From contig CBFGOJ010000016.1 in assembly GCA_965650365.1 (NCBI GenBank), positions 12,710 through 76,709 of the forward strand: DNA of 64,000 nucleotides, in the 5' to 3' direction. Made by a program: the position numbers and the translations under genes. This document shows, piece by piece, positions 2,948 to 43,858 of this stretch (position 1 is its first letter; each line of letters opens with the position of its first letter). A model generated the notes under the pieces. It was not told where the DNA came from and did not search any database. It saw nothing but the letters and a program-made list of their open reading frames with translations. Source of the DNA: an uncultured Fluviicola sp. Its GTDB lineage: Bacteria > Bacteroidota > Bacteroidia > Flavobacteriales_D > Crocinitomicaceae.

Positions 2948-3709
2948 TTACCGCAGCAAAAATTCCAAAACCGCATTCATAAATTCCTCCGGTTTTTCCG
3001 CATGTACCCAATGTCCGGCGTCTTCAATCGTTATAAATGAAGAATCCGGGAATTGATTTTCAATGTCGGAAATATCTGCATCAACGATGTAATTTGAAAG
3101 CCCGCCGCGAATGAACAGGGTTTGCACCATGACTTCCTGTTCCGGTATTGCTTTCAGTATATTGGGCATTTCTCTTTCCAATACTTCTACGTTCATGCGC
3201 CAGGCCAATTTCCCTTTTTCAATCCAATACAGGTTTTTCATCAGGAAAAGACGGGTTCCGTTTTCGGGCACAAAAGGAAGTAGAATTTCTTCTGCAGCCG
3301 AACGGGAATCCATTGCAGTGGCATTTAAAGCGGTAATTCCGGCTAAAATTTGCTGGTGATGCGGCGGATAACCCCGGATTCCCATGTCAACAACGATCAT
3401 TTTCTCAATCGTGTCGGGATAAAGCTGCGCATAACGCATGACGGTTTTTCCACCCATGGAATGACCCAATAGATTGACTTTTTCCAATCCAAGGTCTGTG
3501 ATCAGTTCATGAAGATCTGCTGCAAGTAAGTCGTAATCGAATTCGTTGCTCCAGTCTGTGTGACCGTGATTTCGTTGGTCGACCAGAATAACCTGGAAAT
3601 ATTCCGATAAGCGTTTGGCGTGGGTCTGCCAATTGTCTGAAGAACCAAAAAGTCCGTGAAGGATGATCAATGGTTTTCCTTCCCCGATAATGCGATGCTG
3701 CAATTTCAT
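2948..3709 (-). CDS. Alpha/beta fold hydrolase (YbfF-like esterase)
   Basis: HGLFGSSDNW, GHSMGG nucleophile elbow, AGHWVHAE. Confidence 0.9.
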   Translation of the reverse strand: MKLQHRIIGEGKPLIILHGLFGSSDNWQTHAKRLSEYFQVILVDQRNHGHTDWSNEFDYDLLAADLHELITDLGLEKVNLLGHSMGGKTVMRYAQLYPDTIEKMIVVDMGIRGYPPHHQQILAGITALNATAMDSRSAAEEILLPFVPENGTRLFLMKNLYWIEKGKLAWRMNVEVLEREMPNILKAIPEQEVMVQTLFIRGGLSNYIVDADISDIENQFPDSSFITIEDAGHWVHAEKPEEFMNAVLEFLLR

Positions 3710-3737
3710 GCTGCAAAACTACAAATCCGCTTTGTTT

Positions 3738-4262
3738 TTAATCGAGCAAATGCGAAAAAAAACGGAAGATATTCGGCATTTCCCAATTTGTTTCGGAAAC
3801 TTCTACGTCAATGCCGGTAGTTTTTGTTTCTGTTACCGTTGTTGTTTTCGTGGTTGAAGGACTGCTTGATTTGGTATCTCCTTCAATATCCGTAGAACTC
3901 GATTTCCCGGTAGTGAATTGTTTGTCATTCAATGTTTCAATGATCGAAGCAATTTTGTCAGCAGAAATTTTTGATTTGTCAAAAGTGATGTAAGCAGTGT
4001 TAGTCTTTCTTCCGTCTTCAAAATCGTAAGAAACCCGATCAACTGCACCTGTTTCTTTCAATGCCATTCGGATTGAACCACCACAAGCGTGTTCACAACT
4101 CATTCCTGAAACCTCGATTGCCAGTTTACGATCTGCGTGAACCGGGTCTAATTTTTTAATGACTACTTTCTTTTCAACAGAGATAATTTTCTTTTCCGGA
4201 GTGGAAGAACAGGAACCCAGTACCAACACGGTTGCAAGTCCTAAAAAAATCGAGTGTTTCAT
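3738..4262 (-). CDS. Heavy-metal-associated (HMA) domain lipoprotein
   Basis: Lipoprotein signal MKHSIFLGLATVLVLGSC, GMSCEHAC metal motif, Thr-rich tail. Start moved to ATG at 4262. Confidence 0.75.
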   Translation of the reverse strand: MKHSIFLGLATVLVLGSCSSTPEKKIISVEKKVVIKKLDPVHADRKLAIEVSGMSCEHACGGSIRMALKETGAVDRVSYDFEDGRKTNTAYITFDKSKISADKIASIIETLNDKQFTTGKSSSTDIEGDTKSSSPSTTKTTTVTETKTTGIDVEVSETNWEMPNIFRFFSHLLD

Positions 4263-36336: not shown

Positions 36337-36409
36337 GGTGATGTAGCTCAGTCGGTAGAGCAAAGGACTGAAAATCCTTGTGTCGGGGGTTCGATTCCCT
36401 CCATCACCA
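36337..36409 (+). tRNA. tRNA-Phe: tRNA-Phe (anticodon GAA)
   Basis: Acceptor GGTGATG/CATCACC-A, D-arm GCTCAGTCGGTAGAGC, anticodon arm AAGGA-CTGAAAA-TCCTT, T-loop GGTTCGATTCC. Confidence 0.97.
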
Positions 36410-36411
36410 CG

Positions 36412-36450
36412 AAAAGAAAGCCTTGGCAGTTTTGCTAAGGCTTTCTTTTT
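36412..36450 (+). terminator. Intrinsic terminator after tRNA-Phe
   Basis: AAAAGAAAGCCTTGGCA-GTTT-TGCTAAGGCTTTCTTTTT. Confidence 0.85.
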
Positions 36451-36458
36451 GTTCTTCA

Positions 36459-36527
36459 TTCTCATTCTGCTTCTCATTCCTTGTAGCTCTTTCTTTTTGA
36501 AAGTGAAAATGAGAACGAGAATGAGAG
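36459..36527. repeat. 20-bp imperfect inverted repeat
   Basis: TTCTCATTCTGCTTCTCATT (36459-36478) versus AATGAGAACGAGAATGAGAG (36508-36527). Confidence 0.6.
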
Positions 36528-36556
36528 AAAATCCCGGTTCGAAGTACGATTTGAAG

Positions 36557-36589
36557 TCTCCCTCTTTGGAGAGGGATTAAGGGAGAGGA
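36557..36589. repeat. CCCTCT..GGAGAGGG short palindromic element
   Basis: TCTCCCTCTTTGGAGAGGGATTAAGGGAGAGG. Resembles, from recall, a REP-like intergenic family of Bacteroidota. Confidence 0.45.
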
Positions 36590-36724
36590 TAAAACACAAT
36601 CTTCCGCAACCACCAATTTCATTCGCTTTCCTAAAATTTACAGCGGTTCGATTCCGGTTTGCTCGAAACGTGTCTTATTTCATATTTTTTTGGTAGTATT
36701 GAATGTTAAAAAAATCGCTATCAC

Positions 36725-37588
36725 ATGATTGACGGAATACACCCTAAACTAAATTCAGAATTTATTAGAGAGATCAATATGGTTAATGATGAACCATTCG
36801 TTTCAATGGGACTGATCTCTTTTAATGATGTTTTGAAAGGGCATTACCTTATAGCTGATTATTTTATGTCAGAAGGAGAAGAAGTTGTATTTGGGGTAAA
36901 AGATTTTAATATTTTGGGATCAGCTTTAGGGCGTCAAGTAACTGGTTTTGGCACTTTTCAAAAATGGAACAAACCTGAAGAAATATGTGCAACACTGTTT
37001 TATGGACTTGTTAAAAACCATGCTTTTCACGATGCAAATAAACGAACAGCATTATTGATATTATTGTATCAAATTGATAGATATGGTAGGACTATCAAAG
37101 CTAAACAAATAGAATTTGAAGATTTAGCTGTAAATGTTGCTAAAAACAATCTTGATTACTACGAAAAATATAAATCATTTAAGGATAAAGAGGATGGAAA
37201 TATTTTGTTTATAGCAGATTTTATAAAGAGAAGAACACGTATCATTGATAAAAAGTCTTACGTTGTAACTTTTCAAGAATTGAATAGACTTTTGAAAAGA
37301 CATGGTTGTTACATTGAGGATGCATCAGGTAATTATGCAAACGTATTTAAAATTGAAAAAAACAAGGGGATTTTTGGTAATAAATCAAAACCTAAAAAAG
37401 TTTTGCAAATTGGTTTTCCAGGTTGGAAAAAACAAGTTAATGGAAAGGCTTTAAAAGAGCTGTTAAAGGCTACGAACTTAACCGAAGAAAATGGAGTCGA
37501 TTCACACGTTTTTTTTCGTGAAGCAGAGCCGTTAGGTGCACTTATTGATCAATACAGCGGCCCATTGAAACGTTTAAAAGACAGGTAA
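36725..37588 (+). CDS. Death-on-curing (Doc)-type Fic protein with C-terminal HicA-like extension
   Basis: HAFHDANKRTA (37019-37045) matches the Doc variant HxFx(D/N)(A/G)NKR. C-terminal ELNRLLKRHG...SGNY...FPGWKKQV.GKALKELLKATNL. Confidence 0.85.
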   Translation: MIDGIHPKLNSEFIREINMVNDEPFVSMGLISFNDVLKGHYLIADYFMSEGEEVVFGVKDFNILGSALGRQVTGFGTFQKWNKPEEICATLFYGLVKNHAFHDANKRTALLILLYQIDRYGRTIKAKQIEFEDLAVNVAKNNLDYYEKYKSFKDKEDGNILFIADFIKRRTRIIDKKSYVVTFQELNRLLKRHGCYIEDASGNYANVFKIEKNKGIFGNKSKPKKVLQIGFPGWKKQVNGKALKELLKATNLTEENGVDSHVFFREAEPLGALIDQYSGPLKRLKDR

Positions 37589-37662
37589 TGCTAAGTATTA
37601 CAAAAATTTAATTAAACACTATAAAGAAGAACAAATGTGCTTCTTGTTTTTATTTATTCAAT

Positions 37663-38535
37663 ATGAAAGAATTTGAATTCGACCCAACTTTTGAAAATTT
37701 ATTTTTAAGTTTTGGCTGTATTCAATGCTCAGAACGTCAGCAAATTGAATTATATATTCCTGCTCAAGAAGACATTTTAGAAATGGATGAAACAACCATT
37801 CTCACATCTGAAGGAGTGATGTTTTGCAAATGTGGAAAAGAGTATTATTGCAAAATTTTCGTCACACCTCTTCGAGGTTATGGACATATAGATGGAATCA
37901 CAGAAGGTTATCGGATTACCAAATTGGAAACGGATGGTAATTTCAATGAAGAGGAATATGAAGCACTTATTGATGACCAATATGATGCAATAGTAGATAA
38001 CAGCGAATTTTACCACACTTTCTGTGCAGAAATTCGAAATTTAAAGGAACTTAATTCTATAAATCTCCCGAATAATCGTGTTGATAGAACTTTGAGACGC
38101 CAGATTTATATAGGTATAATTTCTTCTATGGAAACTTATCTTTCAGATGCATTCATTAATACTACATTAAATTCAGATCTATTCCTTAAGAGATTTGTTT
38201 CCACTTTTAAAGATTTTAAAAATGAAACTGTTCCTATGAATAGATTATATGAAGAATTTGAAACAATCAAACTCAAATGTAGACATGTAATGTTAGAAAT
38301 CATCTTTCACAATTTGGGGAAAGTAAAAGGAATGTATCGTGACACTTTAGGAGTTGATTTCGGAAATATAGCTGTACCTTCTAAAGCCGTCACAAAACGT
38401 CATGATTTAGTTCACCGTAACGGTTGGACTAAAGAAAAAGATCAAGTAATGATTGACAGTGATATAATTAATGCTCTAATAATAGACATTCAGACTTTTA
38501 TTGATAAAATCGAAAATCAAGTTAAGAAATTGTGA
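37663..38535 (+). CDS. HEPN-domain protein (putative RNase) with N-terminal Cys-rich zinc finger
   Basis: CIQC...CKCGKEYYC, helix ISSMETYLSDA, and an Rx4H motif RHDLVH (38398-38415) followed by RNG. Confidence 0.7.
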   Translation: MKEFEFDPTFENLFLSFGCIQCSERQQIELYIPAQEDILEMDETTILTSEGVMFCKCGKEYYCKIFVTPLRGYGHIDGITEGYRITKLETDGNFNEEEYEALIDDQYDAIVDNSEFYHTFCAEIRNLKELNSINLPNNRVDRTLRRQIYIGIISSMETYLSDAFINTTLNSDLFLKRFVSTFKDFKNETVPMNRLYEEFETIKLKCRHVMLEIIFHNLGKVKGMYRDTLGVDFGNIAVPSKAVTKRHDLVHRNGWTKEKDQVMIDSDIINALIIDIQTFIDKIENQVKKL

Positions 38536-38574
38536 GAATCACCATTTCCATTCAGTCCCGACCATCCTCAAACG

Positions 38575-38605
38575 AAAAGCTTTGGATAATTTCCGGAGCT
38601 TTTTT
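38575..38605 (+). terminator. Intrinsic terminator closing the Doc/HEPN unit
   Basis: AAAAGCTTTGGA-TAATT-TCCGGAGCTTTTTT. Confidence 0.65.
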
Positions 38606-38806
38606 ATTCCCATGTCTACCTGATACAGTCAACACCTGAAAAGCATCTCTAAGTTTCTAGTACTTGGAAAGCTTTCTGAATCACAACAATCATTCGATTC
38701 GGTAGTTAACTCAATAACTGGCCCTGATTAGATTTTGTGTCCAACTAAAAGAGAAATAATCTCGTTCATTTAAACAGTTGTAGTATTAATACCTAAAACA
38801 ATCACC

Positions 38807-40060
38807 ATGAAAAAAATTCTATTTACCATTTTCACTTGCGGATTCCTTTTCGTTTCGCAGGCACAAAACGTTAGTATTCCGGATGCTAACTTTAAAAATT
38901 ATTTATTAAATCATCCCGGGATTAACACCAATTCTGATAATGAGATCCAGGTAACGGAAGCATTGAGCTTTACGGACAGTATTATGTGCCCGGGACTGCA
39001 AATCTATGATTTAACTGGTATTGAGGCCTTTGAGAACATTGTGTTTTTGTCGTGCGTTAACAATCAGCTGGAAGGATTGGATGTATCGCATAATACCGCT
39101 TTGGAAAGTTTGATCTGCGCCTGGAACAATATTGCCTCCCTGGATGTTTCAGCGAATACGAACCTGCGTAATCTCCGCTGCTCACTAAATCCAATTCAAA
39201 GTCTTGATGTTAGCAATAATCCGGACCTGGAATATTTGTATTGCGAAAGCAATGGTTTGAGTGCTTTGGATGTCAGCCAAAATCCGGATTTAATTGAATT
39301 ATTCTGTACAAGTAATTCTATTCAGACCTTGAATTTAAGCGCTCATTCTTTGCTTAAAAGATTGGATTGTTCCTCAAATCCGTTGAATCAATTGGTTTTC
39401 GCCCCAAACAATGCGTTGGAATACATCATGTGTAATGGTAACCAATTGTCAACTATCAGTTTGGAGAATTGCCCGGCCCTGGTAGAATTTCGTGGGGTGA
39501 ATGGATCTTATACCCAACTTGATTTATCCAACTGCCCGAATTTGAAGCGATTTGATTGTCCGTTCACCCAATTAACAAGTCTTGATTTTTCTAATAATCC
39601 CTTACTGGAAGTTGTGTATTGTTTTTCGAGTCAGCTTACATCTTTGAATATTGCTAACGGAAACAATCCCAACCTGCAATTGCTGTGGGTTTCTAACAAT
39701 CATTTGACATGTATCCAGGTGGATGATGCCGCATATGCTGCAGCCAATTGGATCGGAAATGATTTCGCATTTGACGCAGGAGTATCTTTTGACGAGCATT
39801 GTGTGCTTGGTTTAAGTGGACTGGAAAAGCCAATGATTGCGTTTTACCCGAATCCGGCTATAAGCTTCGTAAATATCCGCGCTGAAGAAAAAACGAGTTA
39901 TAAATTAGTTTCCGTAGACGGAACTACAATCTCCTCGGGTGAGTTCTCGGTTGGAGATAACGTAGTAAATACGGCATCTTTACCAGCAGGAGTTTACTTT
40001 TTTGATTGCGTGGGTGTAAATGCAGGAAGATTCATTCAAAAACTCCAGAAAACGGAATAA
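38807..40060 (+). CDS. Leucine-rich-repeat (internalin-like) protein with T9SS type A C-terminal domain
   Basis: IPDANFKNYLL cap, about 10 LxxLxCxxNxLxxLDxSxN repeats, C-terminal FYPNPA...LPAGVYF. Confidence 0.92.
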   Translation: MKKILFTIFTCGFLFVSQAQNVSIPDANFKNYLLNHPGINTNSDNEIQVTEALSFTDSIMCPGLQIYDLTGIEAFENIVFLSCVNNQLEGLDVSHNTALESLICAWNNIASLDVSANTNLRNLRCSLNPIQSLDVSNNPDLEYLYCESNGLSALDVSQNPDLIELFCTSNSIQTLNLSAHSLLKRLDCSSNPLNQLVFAPNNALEYIMCNGNQLSTISLENCPALVEFRGVNGSYTQLDLSNCPNLKRFDCPFTQLTSLDFSNNPLLEVVYCFSSQLTSLNIANGNNPNLQLLWVSNNHLTCIQVDDAAYAAANWIGNDFAFDAGVSFDEHCVLGLSGLEKPMIAFYPNPAISFVNIRAEEKTSYKLVSVDGTTISSGEFSVGDNVVNTASLPAGVYFFDCVGVNAGRFIQKLQKTE

Positions 40061-40145
40061 GAACTGTATAAGAGAATACTTGAAATGAATGGTGTTTCCC
40101 TATCGGTTCCATTTGCGTCCGCTCTTATCCACACCCACGAAAATA

Positions 40146-40178
40146 AGAAGGTTATCCATACGGATGGCCTTTTTCACT
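40146..40178. terminator. Hairpin between convergent genes
   Basis: AAGGTTATCC-ATAC-GGATGGCCTT followed by TTT. Confidence 0.55.
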
Positions 40179-40241
40179 TTGTGCGAATAAAAAATCCCCA
40201 AAGCAATCTCCGGGGATATAATAAGTTGTGGGAGCCTGAGC

Positions 40242-40619
40242 TCAACGAAAATGATTCGTTATCATCGTCAGAAAAGCTTCGTCACTCATTCTGTTGGAGG
40301 TGCTTTCGGCAGCCACTGCATGTTTATATTGCGGAGTGTCGGAAAGAAAGTGAATGAATTGTTCCTGGGCCTGGCCAGTACCTGTAACATGAATTTCATC
40401 AATATTGACCATTTTCGCGGCAATTTCTTTGAAAAACTTATTTGTGAGTGCCTGTTCCTGGTTGTTTTCGGCATTTTCATTGGTGTTTCTATCGGCACCC
40501 GGGTTGTCGACCCTTCCAAGGATTACAAATTCAGTATTATTTTCATCTTTGCGACCTGTGATCGTTGCGTGATGGGCATCCATCCACACCCCAAATTGTT
40601 TTTTGTGTTTTTCTGACAT
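40242..40619 (-). CDS. Hypothetical protein resembling eRF1 domain-2 / host-attachment (baeRF-like) fold
   Basis: FGVWMDAHHA.I...KFFKEIAAKM...DEIHVTGTGQAQEQF..L pattern recalled for this Bacteroidota family. Confidence 0.55.
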   Translation of the reverse strand: MSEKHKKQFGVWMDAHHATITGRKDENNTEFVILGRVDNPGADRNTNENAENNQEQALTNKFFKEIAAKMVNIDEIHVTGTGQAQEQFIHFLSDTPQYKHAVAAESTSNRMSDEAFLTMITNHFR

Positions 40620-40782
40620 ATCATTTTTCTTAAAGATAGACGAATGGAATGGTGATCCGCAGTTTTTTGGGATAGATTGTGAGGATCTTGTTGAAGGATT
40701 ATTTGATTAAAAATAGTACGAGTTCGACTTTATATTTCGTTTTTGCTCTGAGATTCCAAAAATTTTTCACTACTTGCAGTCA

Positions 40783-41277
40783 ATGAGTAGACAAGGTTAC
40801 AAATTGGCACTTCAGGCCGGGAATTCTCTTCACGTTCACAAAACAAAGGAAGAAGCTGAGAAGTATTACTTTTCCTATCGCGACAAAGCACTGAAAAGTA
40901 TATTGAAACTGGTGAAAAAGTATCCTGAATACCAACTTGATTTTTCTCCTGAAAGTCTAAAGCGCATGGAAAAACTCTATTTCGATTTACTTGAAAAAAA
41001 TGGATATTCAACTTATAAATTACTGGGGCTAACGTTCAAACGAATGGAGCAGCTTCTGGCAATTTACTACGGAGAAGTATTTGTAAAAAACACTAGTTTT
41101 AGTTGGGTTACACAGCCGTTTGGGTTTGTTGAGAATAAATACGAACTGGCAATTCAATCAGAAAACAAAGGATTGACAATAACCTGTTCATCATTTTCCA
41201 ATCATTTTAAAACTCCGGACAATATAAGGAAACAATACCTTTACAGGGAATATATGAAGTATTCAAAATTTGCTTAG
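40783..41277 (+). CDS. Hypothetical protein with LDFSPESL / YxGEV motifs (DUF3806-like)
   Basis: QLDFSPESLKRME and LAIYYGEVFV. ATG at 40783 preferred over TTG at 40774. Confidence 0.55.
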   Translation: MSRQGYKLALQAGNSLHVHKTKEEAEKYYFSYRDKALKSILKLVKKYPEYQLDFSPESLKRMEKLYFDLLEKNGYSTYKLLGLTFKRMEQLLAIYYGEVFVKNTSFSWVTQPFGFVENKYELAIQSENKGLTITCSSFSNHFKTPDNIRKQYLYREYMKYSKFA

Positions 41278-41282
41278 AACCT

Positions 41283-41981
41283 ATGATAAATTCATCCGAC
41301 TCTGAGAACCAAATCCACTTAGTTACCAATTTTCAGGACCTGGTTTCTAAACCTCTTAGGGGAGAACTAAATGCGGTTTGCTGGAAGCGTAAACTTACCG
41401 GTGATTTTTCCGAGATCGTAAATAAGATAGCATTTACAGGAAATATGACTGTTGTTGAACCGGATGAACTACTGGCGCTTGAGTTGAGTGAAGATGGAAA
41501 ATTGGCCCGGGAAATCCTGATGAATGATTTGAAGTTACTCGAAGCACATGGTGCATCGCCGATTCTCAATGTGATCCGGAATTATGAAACGGATGACGAT
41601 GATTTCTTTTTTCCGACGGATGTTTATTCTTTTCATGTGGATCGTTCTCCGATCCCGGTCGATACTTTTTTGTGCACCTATTATGGTGATTCAAGTGAAA
41701 TATTACCCAATTCGGAGGCCGAACAAAAAGTCCTTATCCCGGAAATTCGCAAAGAGCTGCGGAGTTTGTATTCGGGGCCCGATGAAGGATTTGAAGCCTT
41801 CTTGAGCGAATACTTCTTCGACCTGCATTACCAGCCAAAACCAAACGCAAAGCCGATCAATTTAGGCATCGGACATTTGTGGCGATTGGCAACCGATCAC
41901 CCGGAAAACCAAAGTCTTCCCTGTATTCACCGTGCACCCGTTGAAAAATCCGGAAAGCTCAGATTGCTGCTGATCTGTTAA
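41283..41981 (+). CDS. DUF1826 domain protein (cupin/2OG-Fe(II)-like)
   Basis: SFHVDRSP...FLCTYYG and IHRAP...RLLL motifs. Confidence 0.8.
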   Translation: MINSSDSENQIHLVTNFQDLVSKPLRGELNAVCWKRKLTGDFSEIVNKIAFTGNMTVVEPDELLALELSEDGKLAREILMNDLKLLEAHGASPILNVIRNYETDDDDFFFPTDVYSFHVDRSPIPVDTFLCTYYGDSSEILPNSEAEQKVLIPEIRKELRSLYSGPDEGFEAFLSEYFFDLHYQPKPNAKPINLGIGHLWRLATDHPENQSLPCIHRAPVEKSGKLRLLLIC

Positions 41982-41994
41982 AATAAGAGTGAAT

Positions 41995-42333
41995 TTAACA
42001 GGCGAAATCTTTATTCGCAAACATAATGCTGAGAAGGATTGTGATGGATGCCGCACCGATAAAGAAAACGATCAGCGCTCCAATTCTTCGGGAGTTGATT
42101 CTTCCAGCTCTGAAGAGCAGGTATCCGATCAGGAGATTCGACAGGCCCCAAATTGCATTAGTCAGCGGCGAAGAAAGTCCTATTCCCGGATCATCCGCAA
42201 ATGGAGTAGGGAAGGGATCTCCCGAAATTCCGTTTACAAGATGCGGGATCGCATTCGCCAGGAAGAAACCGGCGAAAAAAGCTGAGACGTAATGGTACCA
42301 GCGGTATTTTGGTGTGATTGTCCAATTTTCCAT
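41995..42333 (-). CDS. Hypothetical membrane protein
   Basis: Three hydrophobic helices, FLANAIPHLVNGISGDPFPTPFA. Confidence 0.7.
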   Translation of the reverse strand: MENWTITPKYRWYHYVSAFFAGFFLANAIPHLVNGISGDPFPTPFADDPGIGLSSPLTNAIWGLSNLLIGYLLFRAGRINSRRIGALIVFFIGAASITILLSIMFANKDFAC

Positions 42334-42352
42334 AGTGAGCTATTGTAATTTA

Positions 42353-43075
42353 TTAATGAATATACGAATTGTCCGGATCCAACGGCGAGCGGTAATTTGA
42401 GCGTTTTGAGACTAGAAACCACCCAAATAGAAGAATGATCACCGAAGCGCCAAGAAACAAATAATTTTCATTGTCCGGATTAAATGAACGCTGACGTACA
42501 AAATGCAATTTTAGCAAGTGGTGGTCGAGGAGTCCCTCCACGAGATTGAAAAGTCCCCAACCAAGCAGCAATCCGCCGGATAATAAGGTGCCTGATCTGT
42601 TCAGGTCTCTTCGGAACATCAGTTTCCACATCAGGATGATCCCAATCAGAACAACAGCCCAGCAAAAGAAGTGGAAAATACCGTCCCAAAACATGTTCAC
42701 ACTTTTACCCACCACGGAATCTGTGGAGATTTTGTTGGAAAGCATTTCGTGCCATTGCAGGATTTGATGAAGTGAAATGCCGTCTATAAAACCGCCCATA
42801 CCAATTCCCAATACCATGGATGCCGTGGTCAGCGGAATAGGGTTCAGGGTTTTATAGGAAGGACTTTGAAGCGTGTACCTTTGGTATTTTTTCATGGATA
42901 ACCAGCTTAACAGCCAGACAAGTAAACCCAATACGAAAAAAGCAGAAAGCATAACTGCCAGGTTTGGGTAAAAAGTACTGTCGAAAATTGCCTGCTGTAA
43001 AGGTTTGTTGCAATTGATGCATGCGATTGAATCAGTGGCATAAAACATCGAAATTAACAAACAGATTTTTTTCAT
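42353..43075 (-). CDS. DUF2243 predicted membrane protein
   Basis: GIGMGGFIDGI.LHQILQWHEML, WDGIFH, GWGLFNLVEGLLDHHLL. Confidence 0.88.
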   Translation of the reverse strand: MKKICLLISMFYATDSIACINCNKPLQQAIFDSTFYPNLAVMLSAFFVLGLLVWLLSWLSMKKYQRYTLQSPSYKTLNPIPLTTASMVLGIGMGGFIDGISLHQILQWHEMLSNKISTDSVVGKSVNMFWDGIFHFFCWAVVLIGIILMWKLMFRRDLNRSGTLLSGGLLLGWGLFNLVEGLLDHHLLKLHFVRQRSFNPDNENYLFLGASVIILLFGWFLVSKRSNYRSPLDPDNSYIH

Positions 43076-43267
43076 AGAATAGTATTATTTAATAACTAAA
43101 TTAGCTGATTCGGCTTTCAGCTGTTTATATTGTTTGGAGAGAATTTTACATAATTTCCACATGCCGCAAACAGCAATTAATGACTGATTTTGAGCGAAAG
43201 TGCTTGAGGTTTTAAGCATTTGCAGAATCCCCCGATTATTCCTAAGTTCATCAGAAAATGAATCGCT

Positions 43268-43858
43268 ATGAAATTTTGGAGTATCTCTATTATTCTTATC
43301 GCATTGAGTGCCTGTAATTCTCCCGATCCGGCAAAAACCGTTTCCATCGAAACAGTCGACGAGATTAAAAAGGAAGATGCAGTAGAATATGCCGCCAAAG
43401 AACAGCAGGTCGGAAACTTTGTGCTTCCCAATGAAGTGGTGGTACTGAGTTTCAAAACCAAGAAGAAGAAACAAGTATTCCTGTGTCGGGACAAAGACTA
43501 TCACTACCTGGTGTATCGTTTCGGGACCAAATCTAACCTGGAATTGCAGTTTCCTGAAAAATTGAATGAATCCAGCTTCCAAAAATTCGAACATTCGTCT
43601 TATTTCCGGGGCGGCGGCATAGAAAACCTTGCTATGAACTTGGATTATTTGTCGTTTACCAACAGCGGTTACCGATACGTGATCTATAAAACCTACGCCT
43701 CAGAATCAGTGGGAAACGAAGACGAGATTGGAATCCGTGTCATTCATTTGAACACCAATAAGGAAACCAAAATTGAAGGCGATTTCAATACCTTCGAAGG
43801 CGGCTTCCCCGAAGAAGTGATGGAAAAAGTCTCTCATAGCGAAATGCTTTATGATTAG
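43268..43858 (+). CDS. Hypothetical lipoprotein
   Basis: MKFWSISIILIALSAC lipobox, YLVYRFG..LELQFP and YFRGGG..N motifs. Confidence 0.75.
   Translation: MKFWSISIILIALSACNSPDPAKTVSIETVDEIKKEDAVEYAAKEQQVGNFVLPNEVVVLSFKTKKKKQVFLCRDKDYHYLVYRFGTKSNLELQFPEKLNESSFQKFEHSSYFRGGGIENLAMNLDYLSFTNSGYRYVIYKTYASESVGNEDEIGIRVIHLNTNKETKIEGDFNTFEGGFPEEVMEKVSHSEMLYD

What the first reader, a model, noticed from the sequence alone, without database searches (positions are those of the whole stretch)
36725..37588. Orphan Doc-type toxin fused to a HicA-like domain
Seen: Doc signature HAFHDANKR (Lys variant; P1 Doc with this motif is an EF-Tu kinase rather than an AMPylase), a length of 287 aa (about twice Doc), and no upstream Phd-like ORF. 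The C-terminal segment (about 37265-37485) follows the HicA/dsRBD pattern helix-LKRHG-beta-SG(N)Y-beta-FPG-K.V...LK.LLK...L, but lacks HicA's catalytic His. Inference: the extra domain is a built-in sensor or auto-inhibitor, as in fused, phage-triggered toxins.
Basis: partly seen in the sequence, partly recalled or inferred. Interest (0 to 1): 0.75.

Follow-up and report, generated by a model that had tools for sequence, protein, structure and literature searches.

The report
Solo Doc kinase fused to dead HicA domain
This gene encodes a Doc-type toxin kinase permanently joined to a catalytically dead, HicA-shaped domain and a conserved helical tail, with no antidote gene; it belongs to a widespread, uncharacterised family that probably controls its own toxicity.

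Summary
ORF 36725-37588 (+) encodes 287 aa. Residues ~28-160 are a Doc domain: TIGR01550 and Pfam Fic score above cut-off, the kinase-type motif H99-AFHDANKR-107 is intact, and the predicted structure matches P1 Doc. Residues 182-254 fold as alpha-beta3-alpha. The only meaningful structural match is HicA TTHA1913 (1WHZ). Profile-profile comparison with 22 HicA proteins gives 90% probability over the whole HicA profile. HicA's essential Gly and His are not conserved, so the domain is probably RNase-dead.

A helical tail ending PLxRL is the most conserved C-terminal element. This C-terminal module was found only behind Doc (678 cluster representatives, many phyla). No antitoxin-like or other partner gene recurs in 80 genomic loci.

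In this genus the close form is in 2 of 25 genomes. It lies in a variable stretch that starts exactly at the 3' end of tRNA-Phe. The adjacent Zn-ribbon HEPN gene travels with it only within this genus.

Most likely it is a self-contained, conditionally active Doc kinase whose C-terminal module regulates or targets it. Kinase activity, target and auto-inhibition are inferred, not shown. I found no description of the fusion in the literature searched. An earlier report of this scan describes a distant relative.

The parts
36725..37588 (+). Gene for the 287-aa Doc + HicA-like protein, stop codon included
   Evidence: ORF list and sequence. Full-length homologs of about 288 aa occur in many phyla.
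36725..36805 (+). Family-specific N-terminal segment (residues 1-27, helix 7-17, near-invariant R15)
   Evidence: Alignment A1; AF2 secondary structure.
36806..37204 (+). Doc (Fic-fold) domain, residues about 28-160
   Evidence: Pfam and TIGR01550. Alignment to P1 Doc chains. Foldseek 3k33_A and 3kh2_C, TM 0.72-0.79 normalised to Doc.
37019..37045 (+). Active-site motif H99-A-F-H-D103-A-N105-K106-R107 (Doc kinase type, Lys at the P1 Doc K73 position)
   Evidence: Read from the sequence. H99, F101, D103, N105, K106, R107 and T108 are invariant in 33 homologs. H99 aligns with P1 Doc H66.
37205..37267 (+). Linker helix and strand, residues 161-181 (conserved TRxxDK)
37268..37486 (+). HicA-like alpha-beta-beta-beta-alpha domain, residues 182-254. 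It lacks HicA's functional Gly/His (G202-N203-Y204 in place of G-S-H; PGW234 in place of PxH).
   Evidence: AF2. Foldseek 1whz: probability 0.98 and 0.82, TM 0.63. hhalign probability 90.3%, E 1.5e-6. Column counts.
37487..37585 (+). Conserved helical tail, residues 255-287 (GVDSxxFF...LIxxYxxPLxRL[KA]D[RK]). L281 and L284 are invariant in 58 of 58 sequences.
   Evidence: pLDDT of the last two blocks is 88 and 94 in the full-length model against 62 and 76 in the isolated domain.
36337..36410 (+). tRNA-Phe(GAA). Synteny with the four closest genomes ends at about its 3' end.
   Evidence: ARAGORN; Rfam; blastn to L118-L121.
36645..36655 (+). Second exact copy of the tRNA T-arm word GGTTCGATTCC. 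It marks the left edge of the 1.9-kb unit shared with the other carrier genome.
   Evidence: 2 copies, 0.06 expected. (homology to L082 starts at 36655).
36675..36724 (+). Upstream stretch conserved with the 89%-identical relative (TATTTCA..TTTTTTTGGTAGTATTGAAT). Likely promoter region; this is an inference.
   Evidence: Pairwise DNA alignment.
37663..38535 (+). Neighbour: 290-aa zinc-ribbon + RiboL-PSP-type HEPN protein (RHDLVH motif). It is co-transferred with the Doc gene in this genus only and is not a family-wide partner.
   Evidence: Pfam PF18735, E 1.5e-4, below cut-off. Homologs carry PF18735. It sits next to Doc-HicA only in L001/G016. It stands alone elsewhere.

Best explanation
The gene encodes a single-chain, antitoxin-less member of the Doc branch of the Fic fold.

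Shown here:
- An intact Doc-type active site (HxFxDANKR, with the Lys that in P1 Doc inverts ATP and makes the enzyme a kinase).
- A C-terminal domain remotely homologous to HicA. It keeps the dsRBD-like alpha-beta3-alpha fold but has lost HicA's functionally essential Gly and His.
- A strongly conserved helical tail ending in PLxRL.
- An obligate fusion: the C-terminal module was found only behind Doc.
- No conserved neighbour gene.
- A patchy, horizontally spread distribution. Here the gene lies in a variable stretch that begins at the end of tRNA-Phe.

Inferred:
- The Doc domain phosphorylates a translation factor, most likely EF-Tu at the Thr382 loop, as P1 Doc does.
- A free Doc would be toxic and no antidote gene exists. 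So the C-terminal HicA-like domain plus tail would hold the kinase in check in cis, taking the part that Phd's C-terminal helix plays in trans.
- A cue such as phage infection, loss of a mobile element, or an RNA or protein ligand of the dead HicA domain would release the kinase. Translation would then stop and the cell would arrest.
For: Doc identity:
- Profile matches are above cut-off.
- The active-site residues are invariant in homologs.
- P1 Doc is the top structural match.
- The role of Doc K73 and EF-Tu Thr382 phosphorylation is taken from PMC7180214.

HicA-like domain:
- The AF2 model has pLDDT 90.4 and pTM 0.80, with alpha-beta3-alpha at residues 183-249.
- 1WHZ (TTHA1913, a HicA; PMC10865869 and PMC3969222) is the only meaningful structural hit, in both models.
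- hhalign against 22 HicA proteins gives 90.3% probability, E 1.5e-6, over HicA positions 1-58.
- Pfam HicA_toxin is the most frequent weak hit: 4 of 58 members, best E 0.0024.

Loss of RNase residues:
- The position of HicA His24 reads Y15/F15/K7/R6/S5/Q4 among 58 sequences.
- The position of Gly22 is Gly in only 23 of 58.
- Both residues are needed for HicA toxicity (PMC3969222).

Obligate fusion:
- A profile of the C-terminal module finds 678 cluster representatives, always at the C-terminus.
- Five long hits read in full (167-372 aa) show Doc or Doc-linker sequence in front of the module, and a sixth (173 aa) has an unrelated low-complexity N-terminus. The other listed hits were not read.
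- Of two short hits traced to their contigs, one is a 5'-cut gene with Doc sequence upstream in frame, and the other lies 19 nt from the end of its contig.

No partner gene:
- BLAST and phmmer clustering of neighbours in 80 loci finds nothing that recurs outside local synteny.
- Pfam and PADLOC tallies of 140 flanking genes show no dominant family.

Accessory status:
- The close form is in 2 of 25 genomes of the genus.
- Synteny breaks at the tRNA-Phe 3' end.
- A distant full-length relative sits on a Salmonella filamentous-phage replicon.

Tail docking:
- pTM is 0.80 for the two-domain model.
- Tail pLDDT is 88 and 94 in the full-length model against 62 and 76 in isolation.
Against: - No experiment or read data bears on activity, toxicity or expression.
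- The pLDDT difference may come from the two different alignments used.
- A tail profile finds neither Phd nor EF-Tu in the PDB.
- HicA homology is below Pfam's cut-off (13.3 bits against 27). Foldseek E-values for 1WHZ are weak (0.2-0.4).
- No PADLOC defence model matches beyond the Fic core.
- Flanking genes are only modestly enriched in mobile-element and defence functions.
- The own assembly lacks a detectable tuf gene, so the presumed target could not even be inspected there.
Confidence: 0.5

Rival explanations
1. The dead HicA domain is a targeting module. It keeps the RNA-binding surface of a dsRBD-like fold and brings the Doc kinase to an RNA-bound substrate: the ribosome, a tRNA-associated factor, or a target other than EF-Tu. 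Toxicity would be limited by low expression or by an unlinked factor, not by auto-inhibition.
For: HicA proteins are positively charged RNA-binding domains (PMC3969222). The core keeps conserved Lys/Arg positions (K/R at 236, 244, 248). The module is always fused to Doc and never to another effector, as expected for a co-evolved substrate-recognition unit.
Against: P1 Doc needs no extra domain to act on EF-Tu, and ternary-complex formation with tRNA blocks Doc binding (PMC7180214). This reading does not explain how an unguarded toxin is tolerated without any partner gene. The most conserved part is the tail, not the beta-sheet face.
Confidence: 0.22
2. Doc-HicA and the downstream zinc-ribbon HEPN gene form one two-gene toxin-antitoxin or defence system. 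One protein would control the other, for example by phosphorylation of the HEPN RNase.
For: The genes are on the same strand, 75 nt apart. The 1.9-kb pair (36655-38552) is the unit shared, at 82% nucleotide identity, with the only other close carrier in the genus, while the flanks differ.
Against: None of the other 79 Doc-HicA loci has a HEPN relative nearby. HEPN homologs, including a 78%-identical one named Fluviicola taffensis, stand without any Doc gene (one search finds no Doc-HicA in the other genomes of the genus).
Confidence: 0.08
3. It is an ordinary type II or other toxin-antitoxin locus whose antitoxin was missed: a very small or fast-evolving ORF, an RNA, or an unlinked gene.
For: Short antitoxins evolve fast and can escape BLAST or phmmer clustering. 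Hairpin-rich, partly conserved non-coding DNA lies upstream.
Against: No same-strand adjacent small ORF is consistently present in 80 loci. No adjacent ORF family of 200 aa or less recurs at phmmer E 0.01. The upstream ORFs hit no antitoxin family. The upstream non-coding stretch is not shared by distant loci.
Confidence: 0.08
4. It is not a toxin at all. It would be a non-lethal regulatory kinase, or an enzymatically inactive relic kept for another role.
For: Solo status. The family is widespread with full-length conservation, which implies purifying selection on a tolerated protein.
Against: The distribution is patchy and horizontally spread: 2 of 25 genomes in the genus, and 45% identity across phyla. 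All Doc catalytic residues are invariant. It sits in a variable region and, in a distant relative, on a filamentous phage.
Confidence: 0.1

Closest known systems
P1 Doc of the phd-doc type II toxin-antitoxin module (PDB 3K33, 3KH2, 3DD7; TIGR01550, PF02661)
   Same: Same fold (TM 0.72-0.79 normalised to Doc). Same active-site motif, with the kinase-determining Lys: H99/D103/N105/K106/R107 correspond to H66/D70/N72/K73/R74.
   Different: It is twice as long, with an extra N-terminal helix, a HicA-like domain and a conserved tail. There is no Phd or any other neighbouring antitoxin gene. It is chromosomal and solo, not a plasmid-prophage addiction pair.
HicA toxins (PF07927; T. thermophilus TTHA1913, PDB 1WHZ; B. 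pseudomallei HicA)
   Same: [quoted passage not shown] The profile-profile match covers the full HicA profile.
   Different: It is below the Pfam cut-off. The Gly-Ser-His motif needed for toxicity is not conserved. The beta2-beta3 hairpin is long and variable. There is no HicB gene. The domain is fused behind a Doc domain, a context not listed among the 14 HicA contexts in PMC10865869.
Single-chain fused toxin-antitoxins: CapRel(SJ46), EzeT, fused HicAB, fused MNT-HEPN
   Same: One polypeptide with a toxin-type enzyme domain plus a second, non-catalytic domain. No separate antitoxin gene. Accessory distribution.
   Different: The enzyme is different (Doc kinase) and so is the accessory fold. 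Cis-neutralisation and a trigger are only inferred here. In CapRel and EzeT they were shown experimentally (as summarised in PMC10865869).
Doc-long genes on enterobacterial filamentous phages
   Same: Same three-part architecture over residues 30-285, including the GxDSxxF and LxRL tail elements. Solo gene.
   Different: Only 26% identical and 244 aa long, without the N-terminal helix. It is carried as inovirus cargo, not in a chromosomal tRNA-adjacent variable region.

Membership tests
Doc family (Fic fold; TIGR01550 / PF02661) | Profile match above the curated cut-off | tested here: met
   TIGR01550 scores 47.7 bits against 38.65. PF02661 scores 33.8 bits against 24.
Doc family (Fic fold; TIGR01550 / PF02661) | Active-site motif HxFx(D/N)(A/G)NKR, with Lys in place of the Fic Gly | tested here: met
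   H99-AFHDANKR-107 is read from the sequence. The residues are invariant in 33 homologs. The role of the Lys is taken from PMC7180214.
Doc family (Fic fold; TIGR01550 / PF02661) | Doc three-dimensional fold | tested here: met
   Foldseek top hits are 3k33_A, 3dd7_A and 3kh2_C, probability 1.00, TM 0.72-0.79 normalised to the target. This rests on a predicted model with pLDDT 90.
Doc family (Fic fold; TIGR01550 / PF02661) | Phosphorylation of EF-Tu and growth arrest | not testable with these tools
   This needs a kinase assay and toxicity tests.
Type II phd-doc toxin-antitoxin module | Adjacent, co-oriented small antitoxin gene (Phd, AbrB, Xre, YhfG or similar) | tested here: not met
   None is present in the window. 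No family recurs in 80 loci.
HicA toxin family (PF07927) | Pfam profile match above the gathering score | tested here: not met
   E 0.095, 13.3 bits against 27. It is a weak hit in 4 of 58 family members.
HicA toxin family (PF07927) | [quoted passage not shown] | tested here: met
   AF2 topology. 1WHZ: TM 0.63, probability 0.82-0.98. hhalign 90.3%, E 1.5e-6.
HicA toxin family (PF07927) | Conserved Gly-Ser-His, with His and Gly required for RNase toxicity | tested here: not met
   The aligned residues are G202-N203-Y204. Across 58 sequences the His position reads Y/F/K/R/S/Q, and Gly is kept in 23 of 58.
HicA toxin family (PF07927) | Linked HicB antitoxin | tested here: not met
   No conserved neighbour.
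Single-chain fused toxin-antitoxin (CapRel / EzeT type) | Toxin domain and a second domain in one polypeptide, with no separate antitoxin gene | tested here: met
Single-chain fused toxin-antitoxin (CapRel / EzeT type) | The second domain neutralises the toxin in cis and is released by a trigger | not testable with these tools
   The evidence is indirect only: pTM 0.80, and tail pLDDT higher in the full-length model.
PADLOC candidate single-gene systems PDC-S23 / PDC-S05 | Full-length match to the system's model | tested here: not met
   Only residues 33-133 (the Fic core) match, to positions about 193-294 of models 291-331 long. The architecture is therefore different.

The most novel reading that the evidence does not exclude
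Doc-HicA is a one-protein immune sensor of a kind not yet described. An RNase-dead HicA domain would have been re-used as a ligand sensor, for a phage RNA or protein. Together with the PLxRL tail it would clamp a Doc kinase. Ligand binding would free the kinase to phosphorylate EF-Tu and abort infection. That would make a degenerate toxin domain the regulatory half of another toxin.
Probability: 0.2. Interest if true: 0.8.

Novelty: new variant of a known kind. Interest (0 to 1): 0.55.

Why it matters
Doc is a textbook toxin that has been understood only as half of a two-gene pair. Here a large family (hundreds of sequence clusters in Bacteroidota, Proteobacteria, Firmicutes, Acidobacteriota, Planctomycetota and others) does without any antidote gene. 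Every listed member carries the same extra module: a HicA-derived domain that has lost its RNase residues, plus a conserved tail.

If the module is a cis-acting brake or sensor, three things follow:
- it adds a new enzyme class to single-chain toxin-antitoxin and defence proteins;
- it gives an example of one toxin fold recycled as the regulator of another;
- it offers a small, easily testable system of one gene of 0.9 kb.

The domain has no Pfam or NCBIfam model, and current annotation ("type II TA system death-on-curing family toxin") is misleading about the gene's organisation.

Tried and rejected
- Sequence-profile search of the C-terminal module against the PDB found no HicA. The top hits (EF-hand protein, xylose isomerase) are noise. 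Homology was recovered only by profile-profile and fold comparison.
- Tail as a Phd mimic or as an EF-Tu Thr382-loop pseudosubstrate. The family has DSxxFFxGxxP. A Paracoccus EF-Tu read has HTPFFANYRP, and the E. coli loop HTPFFKGYRP is from memory. A tail profile finds neither Phd nor EF-Tu in the PDB. The register differs by one residue, and the Ser is Ala in one clade. I keep this only as an untested idea.
- Mutual-information coupling between the tail and the Doc domain (246 sequences). The top inter-domain pairs (L247-K285, L134-K285, G65-K285) are clade markers (KDK-type versus ADR-type C-termini), so the result is not usable.
- Split versions, with the C-terminal module as a separate gene. 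The hits of 117-126 aa look stand-alone. Of the two traced to contigs, one is a 5'-truncated gene with Doc sequence upstream in frame (L128) and the other sits 19 nt from a contig end (L129).
- Terminator between the Doc and HEPN genes. The fold is no better than shuffles, and the scan finds nothing.
- Integrase or other mobility gene in the variable stretch 36411-43335. Pfam found none in the ORFs scanned between 38.8 and 45.6 kb; those at 41989-42285 (+) and 43177-43494 (-) were not scanned.
- Viral structure library. Only Doc/Fic-domain matches appear, and no full-architecture match.
- Phage collection. Only Doc-domain hits, in Streptococcus phages.
Full report
**What is there**

The window holds an ATG-started ORF at 36725-37588 (+) of 287 aa. 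It begins 315 nt after tRNA-Phe(GAA) at 36337-36410. It is followed 75 nt later by a 290-aa ORF on the same strand (37663-38535).

Pfam places a Fic/DOC match at residues 79-115 (E 6.2e-8, above cut-off). NCBIfam places TIGR01550 (DOC_P1) at residues 86-142 (E 1.5e-12, 47.7 bits against 38.65). The motif HAFHDANKR is residues 99-107. Alignment with P1 Doc chains puts H99, D103, N105, K106 and R107 on Doc H66, D70, N72, K73 and R74. According to PMC7180214, Lys73 in place of the Fic glycine inverts ATP and makes Doc a kinase of EF-Tu Thr382.

**A conserved two-domain family**

A search of 5.8 billion protein clusters gave 678 hits. The best 120 are nearly all 284-309 aa and cover 90-100% of the query. 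They come from Bacteroidota, Lachnospiraceae, Burkholderiales, Planctomycetota and others.

In a 33-sequence alignment both halves are conserved. K97, H99, F101, D103, N105, K106, R107 and T108 are invariant, and so are L190, L252, D259, I274, L281 and L284 in the C-terminal half.

A scan of one genome per species returned 80 loci. These span Bacteroidota, Alpha-, Beta- and Gammaproteobacteria, Desulfobacterota, Acidobacteriota, Planctomycetota, Chloroflexi, Myxococcota, Bdellovibrionota, Clostridia, Fibrobacterota and a CPR bacterium.

**Structure**

AlphaFold2 on the 33-sequence alignment gives mean pLDDT 90.4 and pTM 0.80. Against the PDB, the top hits are P1 Doc chains (3k33_A, 3dd7_A, 3kh2_C; probability 1.00; TM 0.72-0.79 normalised to Doc). 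The only non-Fic hit of note is 1WHZ (probability 0.98, TM 0.63 over 78 columns). 1WHZ is TTHA1913, the T. thermophilus HicA (PMC3969222 and PMC10865869).

The C-terminal half is predicted as:
- helix 183-191;
- strands 195-201, 204-215 and 218-230;
- helix 240-249, which completes the dsRBD-like alpha-beta3-alpha topology of HicA;
- short helices at 260-263, 269-276 and 278-283.

A separate model of residues 170-287, from 58 sequences (pLDDT 78), again finds 1WHZ as the only meaningful match (rank 2, probability 0.82, TM 0.63).

**Is the HicA resemblance homology?**

A plain HMM search of the C-terminal profile against PDB sequences finds no HicA. Pfam HicA_toxin is sub-threshold for the window protein (E 0.095). 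It is still the most frequent weak hit among the 58 members (4 of 58, best E 0.0024).

I collected 22 bona fide HicA proteins from genomes of the same order and compared profiles. hhalign gives 90.3% probability, E 1.5e-6, covering HicA positions 1-58. I conclude remote homology.

In that alignment HicA's G-S-H falls on G202-N203-Y204, and its P-x-H on P232-G-W234. Across the 58 sequences:
- the His position reads Y15, F15, K7, R6, S5, Q4;
- the Gly position is Gly in only 23.

In B. pseudomallei HicA both Gly22 and His24 are required for toxicity (PMC3969222). The domain is therefore very probably not an RNase.

**The tail**

The most conserved part of the C-terminal half is not the HicA-like core. 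It is the last 30 residues, GxDSxxFFxGxDPLxxLIxxYxxPLxRL[AK]D[RK]:
- L281 and L284 are invariant in 58 of 58;
- L273, I274, Y277, P280 and R283 are near-invariant.

Its predicted confidence is higher in the full-length model (blocks 88 and 94) than in the isolated domain (62 and 76). Together with pTM 0.80, this suggests that the module packs on the Doc domain. The two models used different alignments, and I had no access to coordinates, so this is only suggestive.

**Orphan status**

In the window, the small ORFs between the tRNA and the gene hit no antitoxin family. They are not conserved in the 89%-identical relative. Across the 80 loci:
- BLAST clustering of all ORFs within 2.5 kb finds only local synteny groups of 5 loci or fewer;
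- no same-strand adjacent small ORF is consistently present;
- phmmer clustering at E 0.01 of ORFs of 200 aa or less within 300 nt gives groups of 3 loci or fewer;
- a Pfam tally of 140 immediately flanking genes has no dominant family. The leaders, at 3 each, are phage integrase, DDE transposases, Fic and TSCPD, followed by relaxase and restriction subunits;
- a PADLOC tally shows scattered restriction-modification, SspH, SoFic and candidate-system hits.

A profile of the C-terminal module, searched against 1.84 billion representatives, finds 678 proteins with the module always at the C-terminus. Five long hits that I read in full (167-372 aa) show Doc or Doc-linker sequence before the module; a sixth, of 173 aa, has an unrelated low-complexity N-terminus. 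I did not read the other listed hits. I traced two short "stand-alone" hits to their contigs. One (L128) is a gene cut at its 5' end, with Doc sequence upstream in frame. The other (L129) lies 19 nt from the end of its contig. In this sample the module occurs only behind Doc, and the family is solo.

**Local context**

The closest hits suggest a Fluviicola-like member of Flavobacteriales (record names). This is an inference from neighbours, not an identification.

Within the genus, only the window's genome and one other (G016, which matches the MAG record Flavobacteriales bacterium UBA5871) carry the close form. A third genome has a 31%-identical full-length relative.

In the four closest genomes, coaX and tRNA-Phe are conserved, and homology stops at about the tRNA's 3' end (36410 in three genomes, 36419 in the fourth). 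None of the next six window genes is found there, apart from a weak partial match to the LRR gene's C-terminal tail in one genome. Synteny resumes near window 43335.

The unit shared with G016 is 36655-38552: the Doc-HicA gene plus the next gene, at 82% nucleotide identity. Its left edge is a second exact copy of the tRNA T-arm word GGTTCGATTCC. No integrase was found among the ORFs scanned in the variable stretch.

The gene therefore sits in a tRNA-adjacent hypervariable region, as accessory, horizontally moving genes often do.

**The neighbour**

The 290-aa product of 37663-38535 has an N-terminal CxxC...CxC zinc ribbon. Its C-terminus matches HEPN_RiboL-PSP weakly (E 1.5e-4) and carries an RHDLVH motif. 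Many of its homologs carry PF18735.

It lies next to Doc-HicA only in L001/G016. Its homologs elsewhere have no Fic gene nearby. These include a 78%-identical one named Fluviicola taffensis.

The pair is a lineage-specific adjacency, perhaps a small defence-type islet. It is not a conserved two-gene system.

**Mobile elements**

The phage collection has only Doc-domain matches. The viral structure library has no full-architecture match.

The plasmid collection has one full-length relative: 26% identity over residues 30-285, with the HicA-like region and the GWDS...LLRLR tail present. It lies on a 7.9-kb Salmonella replicon annotated with filamentous-phage genes: replication protein II/X, DNA-binding protein, G7P, major coat, attachment protein and secretin.

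After I had found this, an earlier report of this scan (e1-375337) turned up. It describes the same "solo Doc fused to HicA-like domain" on an E. coli filamentous prophage. It agrees with my reading but is not independent evidence of function.

**Mechanism**

Shown here: an intact Doc kinase-type site, a dead HicA-like domain, a conserved tail, obligate fusion, no partner gene, and accessory distribution.

Inferred:
1. The Doc domain phosphorylates EF-Tu, by analogy with P1 Doc.
2. Such an enzyme must be restrained.
3. The only conserved candidate for that restraint is its own C-terminal module.
4. Release follows some cue.

I give this about 0.5. The main rival, at about 0.2, is that the HicA-like domain is a targeting or RNA-binding module. 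The two-gene reading, a missed antitoxin, and a non-toxic regulator each get about 0.1 or less.

Two attractive ideas are not supported by a profile search and remain speculation:
- the tail mimics Phd's C-terminal helix;
- the DSxxFFxGxxP segment mimics the EF-Tu loop. A Paracoccus EF-Tu in locus L052 reads HTPFFANYRP.

**Novelty**

The survey of 14 HicA contexts (PMC10865869) does not mention Doc or Fic. Other literature searches found no description of this fusion. Neither Pfam nor NCBIfam models the C-terminal half. Databases label members simply as Doc-family toxins.

I class it as a new variant of a known kind. The parts are known. The fixed combination, the loss of HicA catalysis and the absence of an antitoxin are not described.

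**Limits**

- All structural statements rest on predicted models.
- The own assembly shows no tuf gene.

Noticed in passing
window 37663-38535 (+): A 290-aa protein with an N-terminal CxxC...CxC zinc ribbon and a RiboL-PSP-type HEPN C-terminus (RHDLVH). It belongs to a family of about 290 aa found in many metagenomes, which JGI sometimes names 'Elf1'. It stands alone in other genomes, among unannotated genes.
   Followed up: partly
window 36411 to about 43335: A hypervariable stretch that starts at about the 3' end of tRNA-Phe. The four closest genomes share coaX and tRNA-Phe but have unrelated DNA for about 6 kb before synteny resumes. No integrase was found among the ORFs scanned. Some of the window's genes here have copies elsewhere in a relative's genome.
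   Followed up: partly
window 36441-36483 and 36645-36655; L001 about 3700-3790: A 43-nt sequence (CTTTCTTTTTGT.CTTCATTCTCATTCTGCTTCTCATTCCTT) follows a tRNA-type T-arm word in both carrier genomes. Fragments of the 36441-36703 spacer recur in two other genomes of the genus. It may be an att remnant or a small repeat element.
   Followed up: no
window 36556-36590 (+): A sub-threshold Rfam match to whalefall-1 RNA (31.1 bits against a gathering score of 37, E 1.6e-5), on the hairpin CCCTCTTTGGAGAGGG.
   Followed up: no
whole assembly G000: No EF-Tu gene was detectable. PF03143 gave no match, and there is no GHVDHGKTT or RHTPF word in six frames. This is despite 99.9% estimated completeness. tuf probably fell into an assembly gap.
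   Followed up: partly
L052:4879-6054 (-), Paracoccus sediminis: A tuf (EF-Tu) gene lies convergent, 75 nt downstream of that genome's Doc-HicA gene. The adjacency was seen in 1 of about 70 loci, so it is probably coincidence. It is curious all the same, given Doc's known target.
   Followed up: no
L127 (NZ_CP140410.1, Salmonella, 7.9 kb): A replicon annotated with filamentous-phage genes carries a 244-aa distant member of the same Doc + HicA-like + tail family. A 60-aa hypothetical ORF lies 150 nt upstream and hits no Pfam family.
   Followed up: partly
L083 (G023:C453:1890-2672): A third genome of the genus has a 31%-identical full-length relative (residues 30-278, open frame 293 aa). More than one subfamily therefore circulates in the genus.
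   Followed up: no
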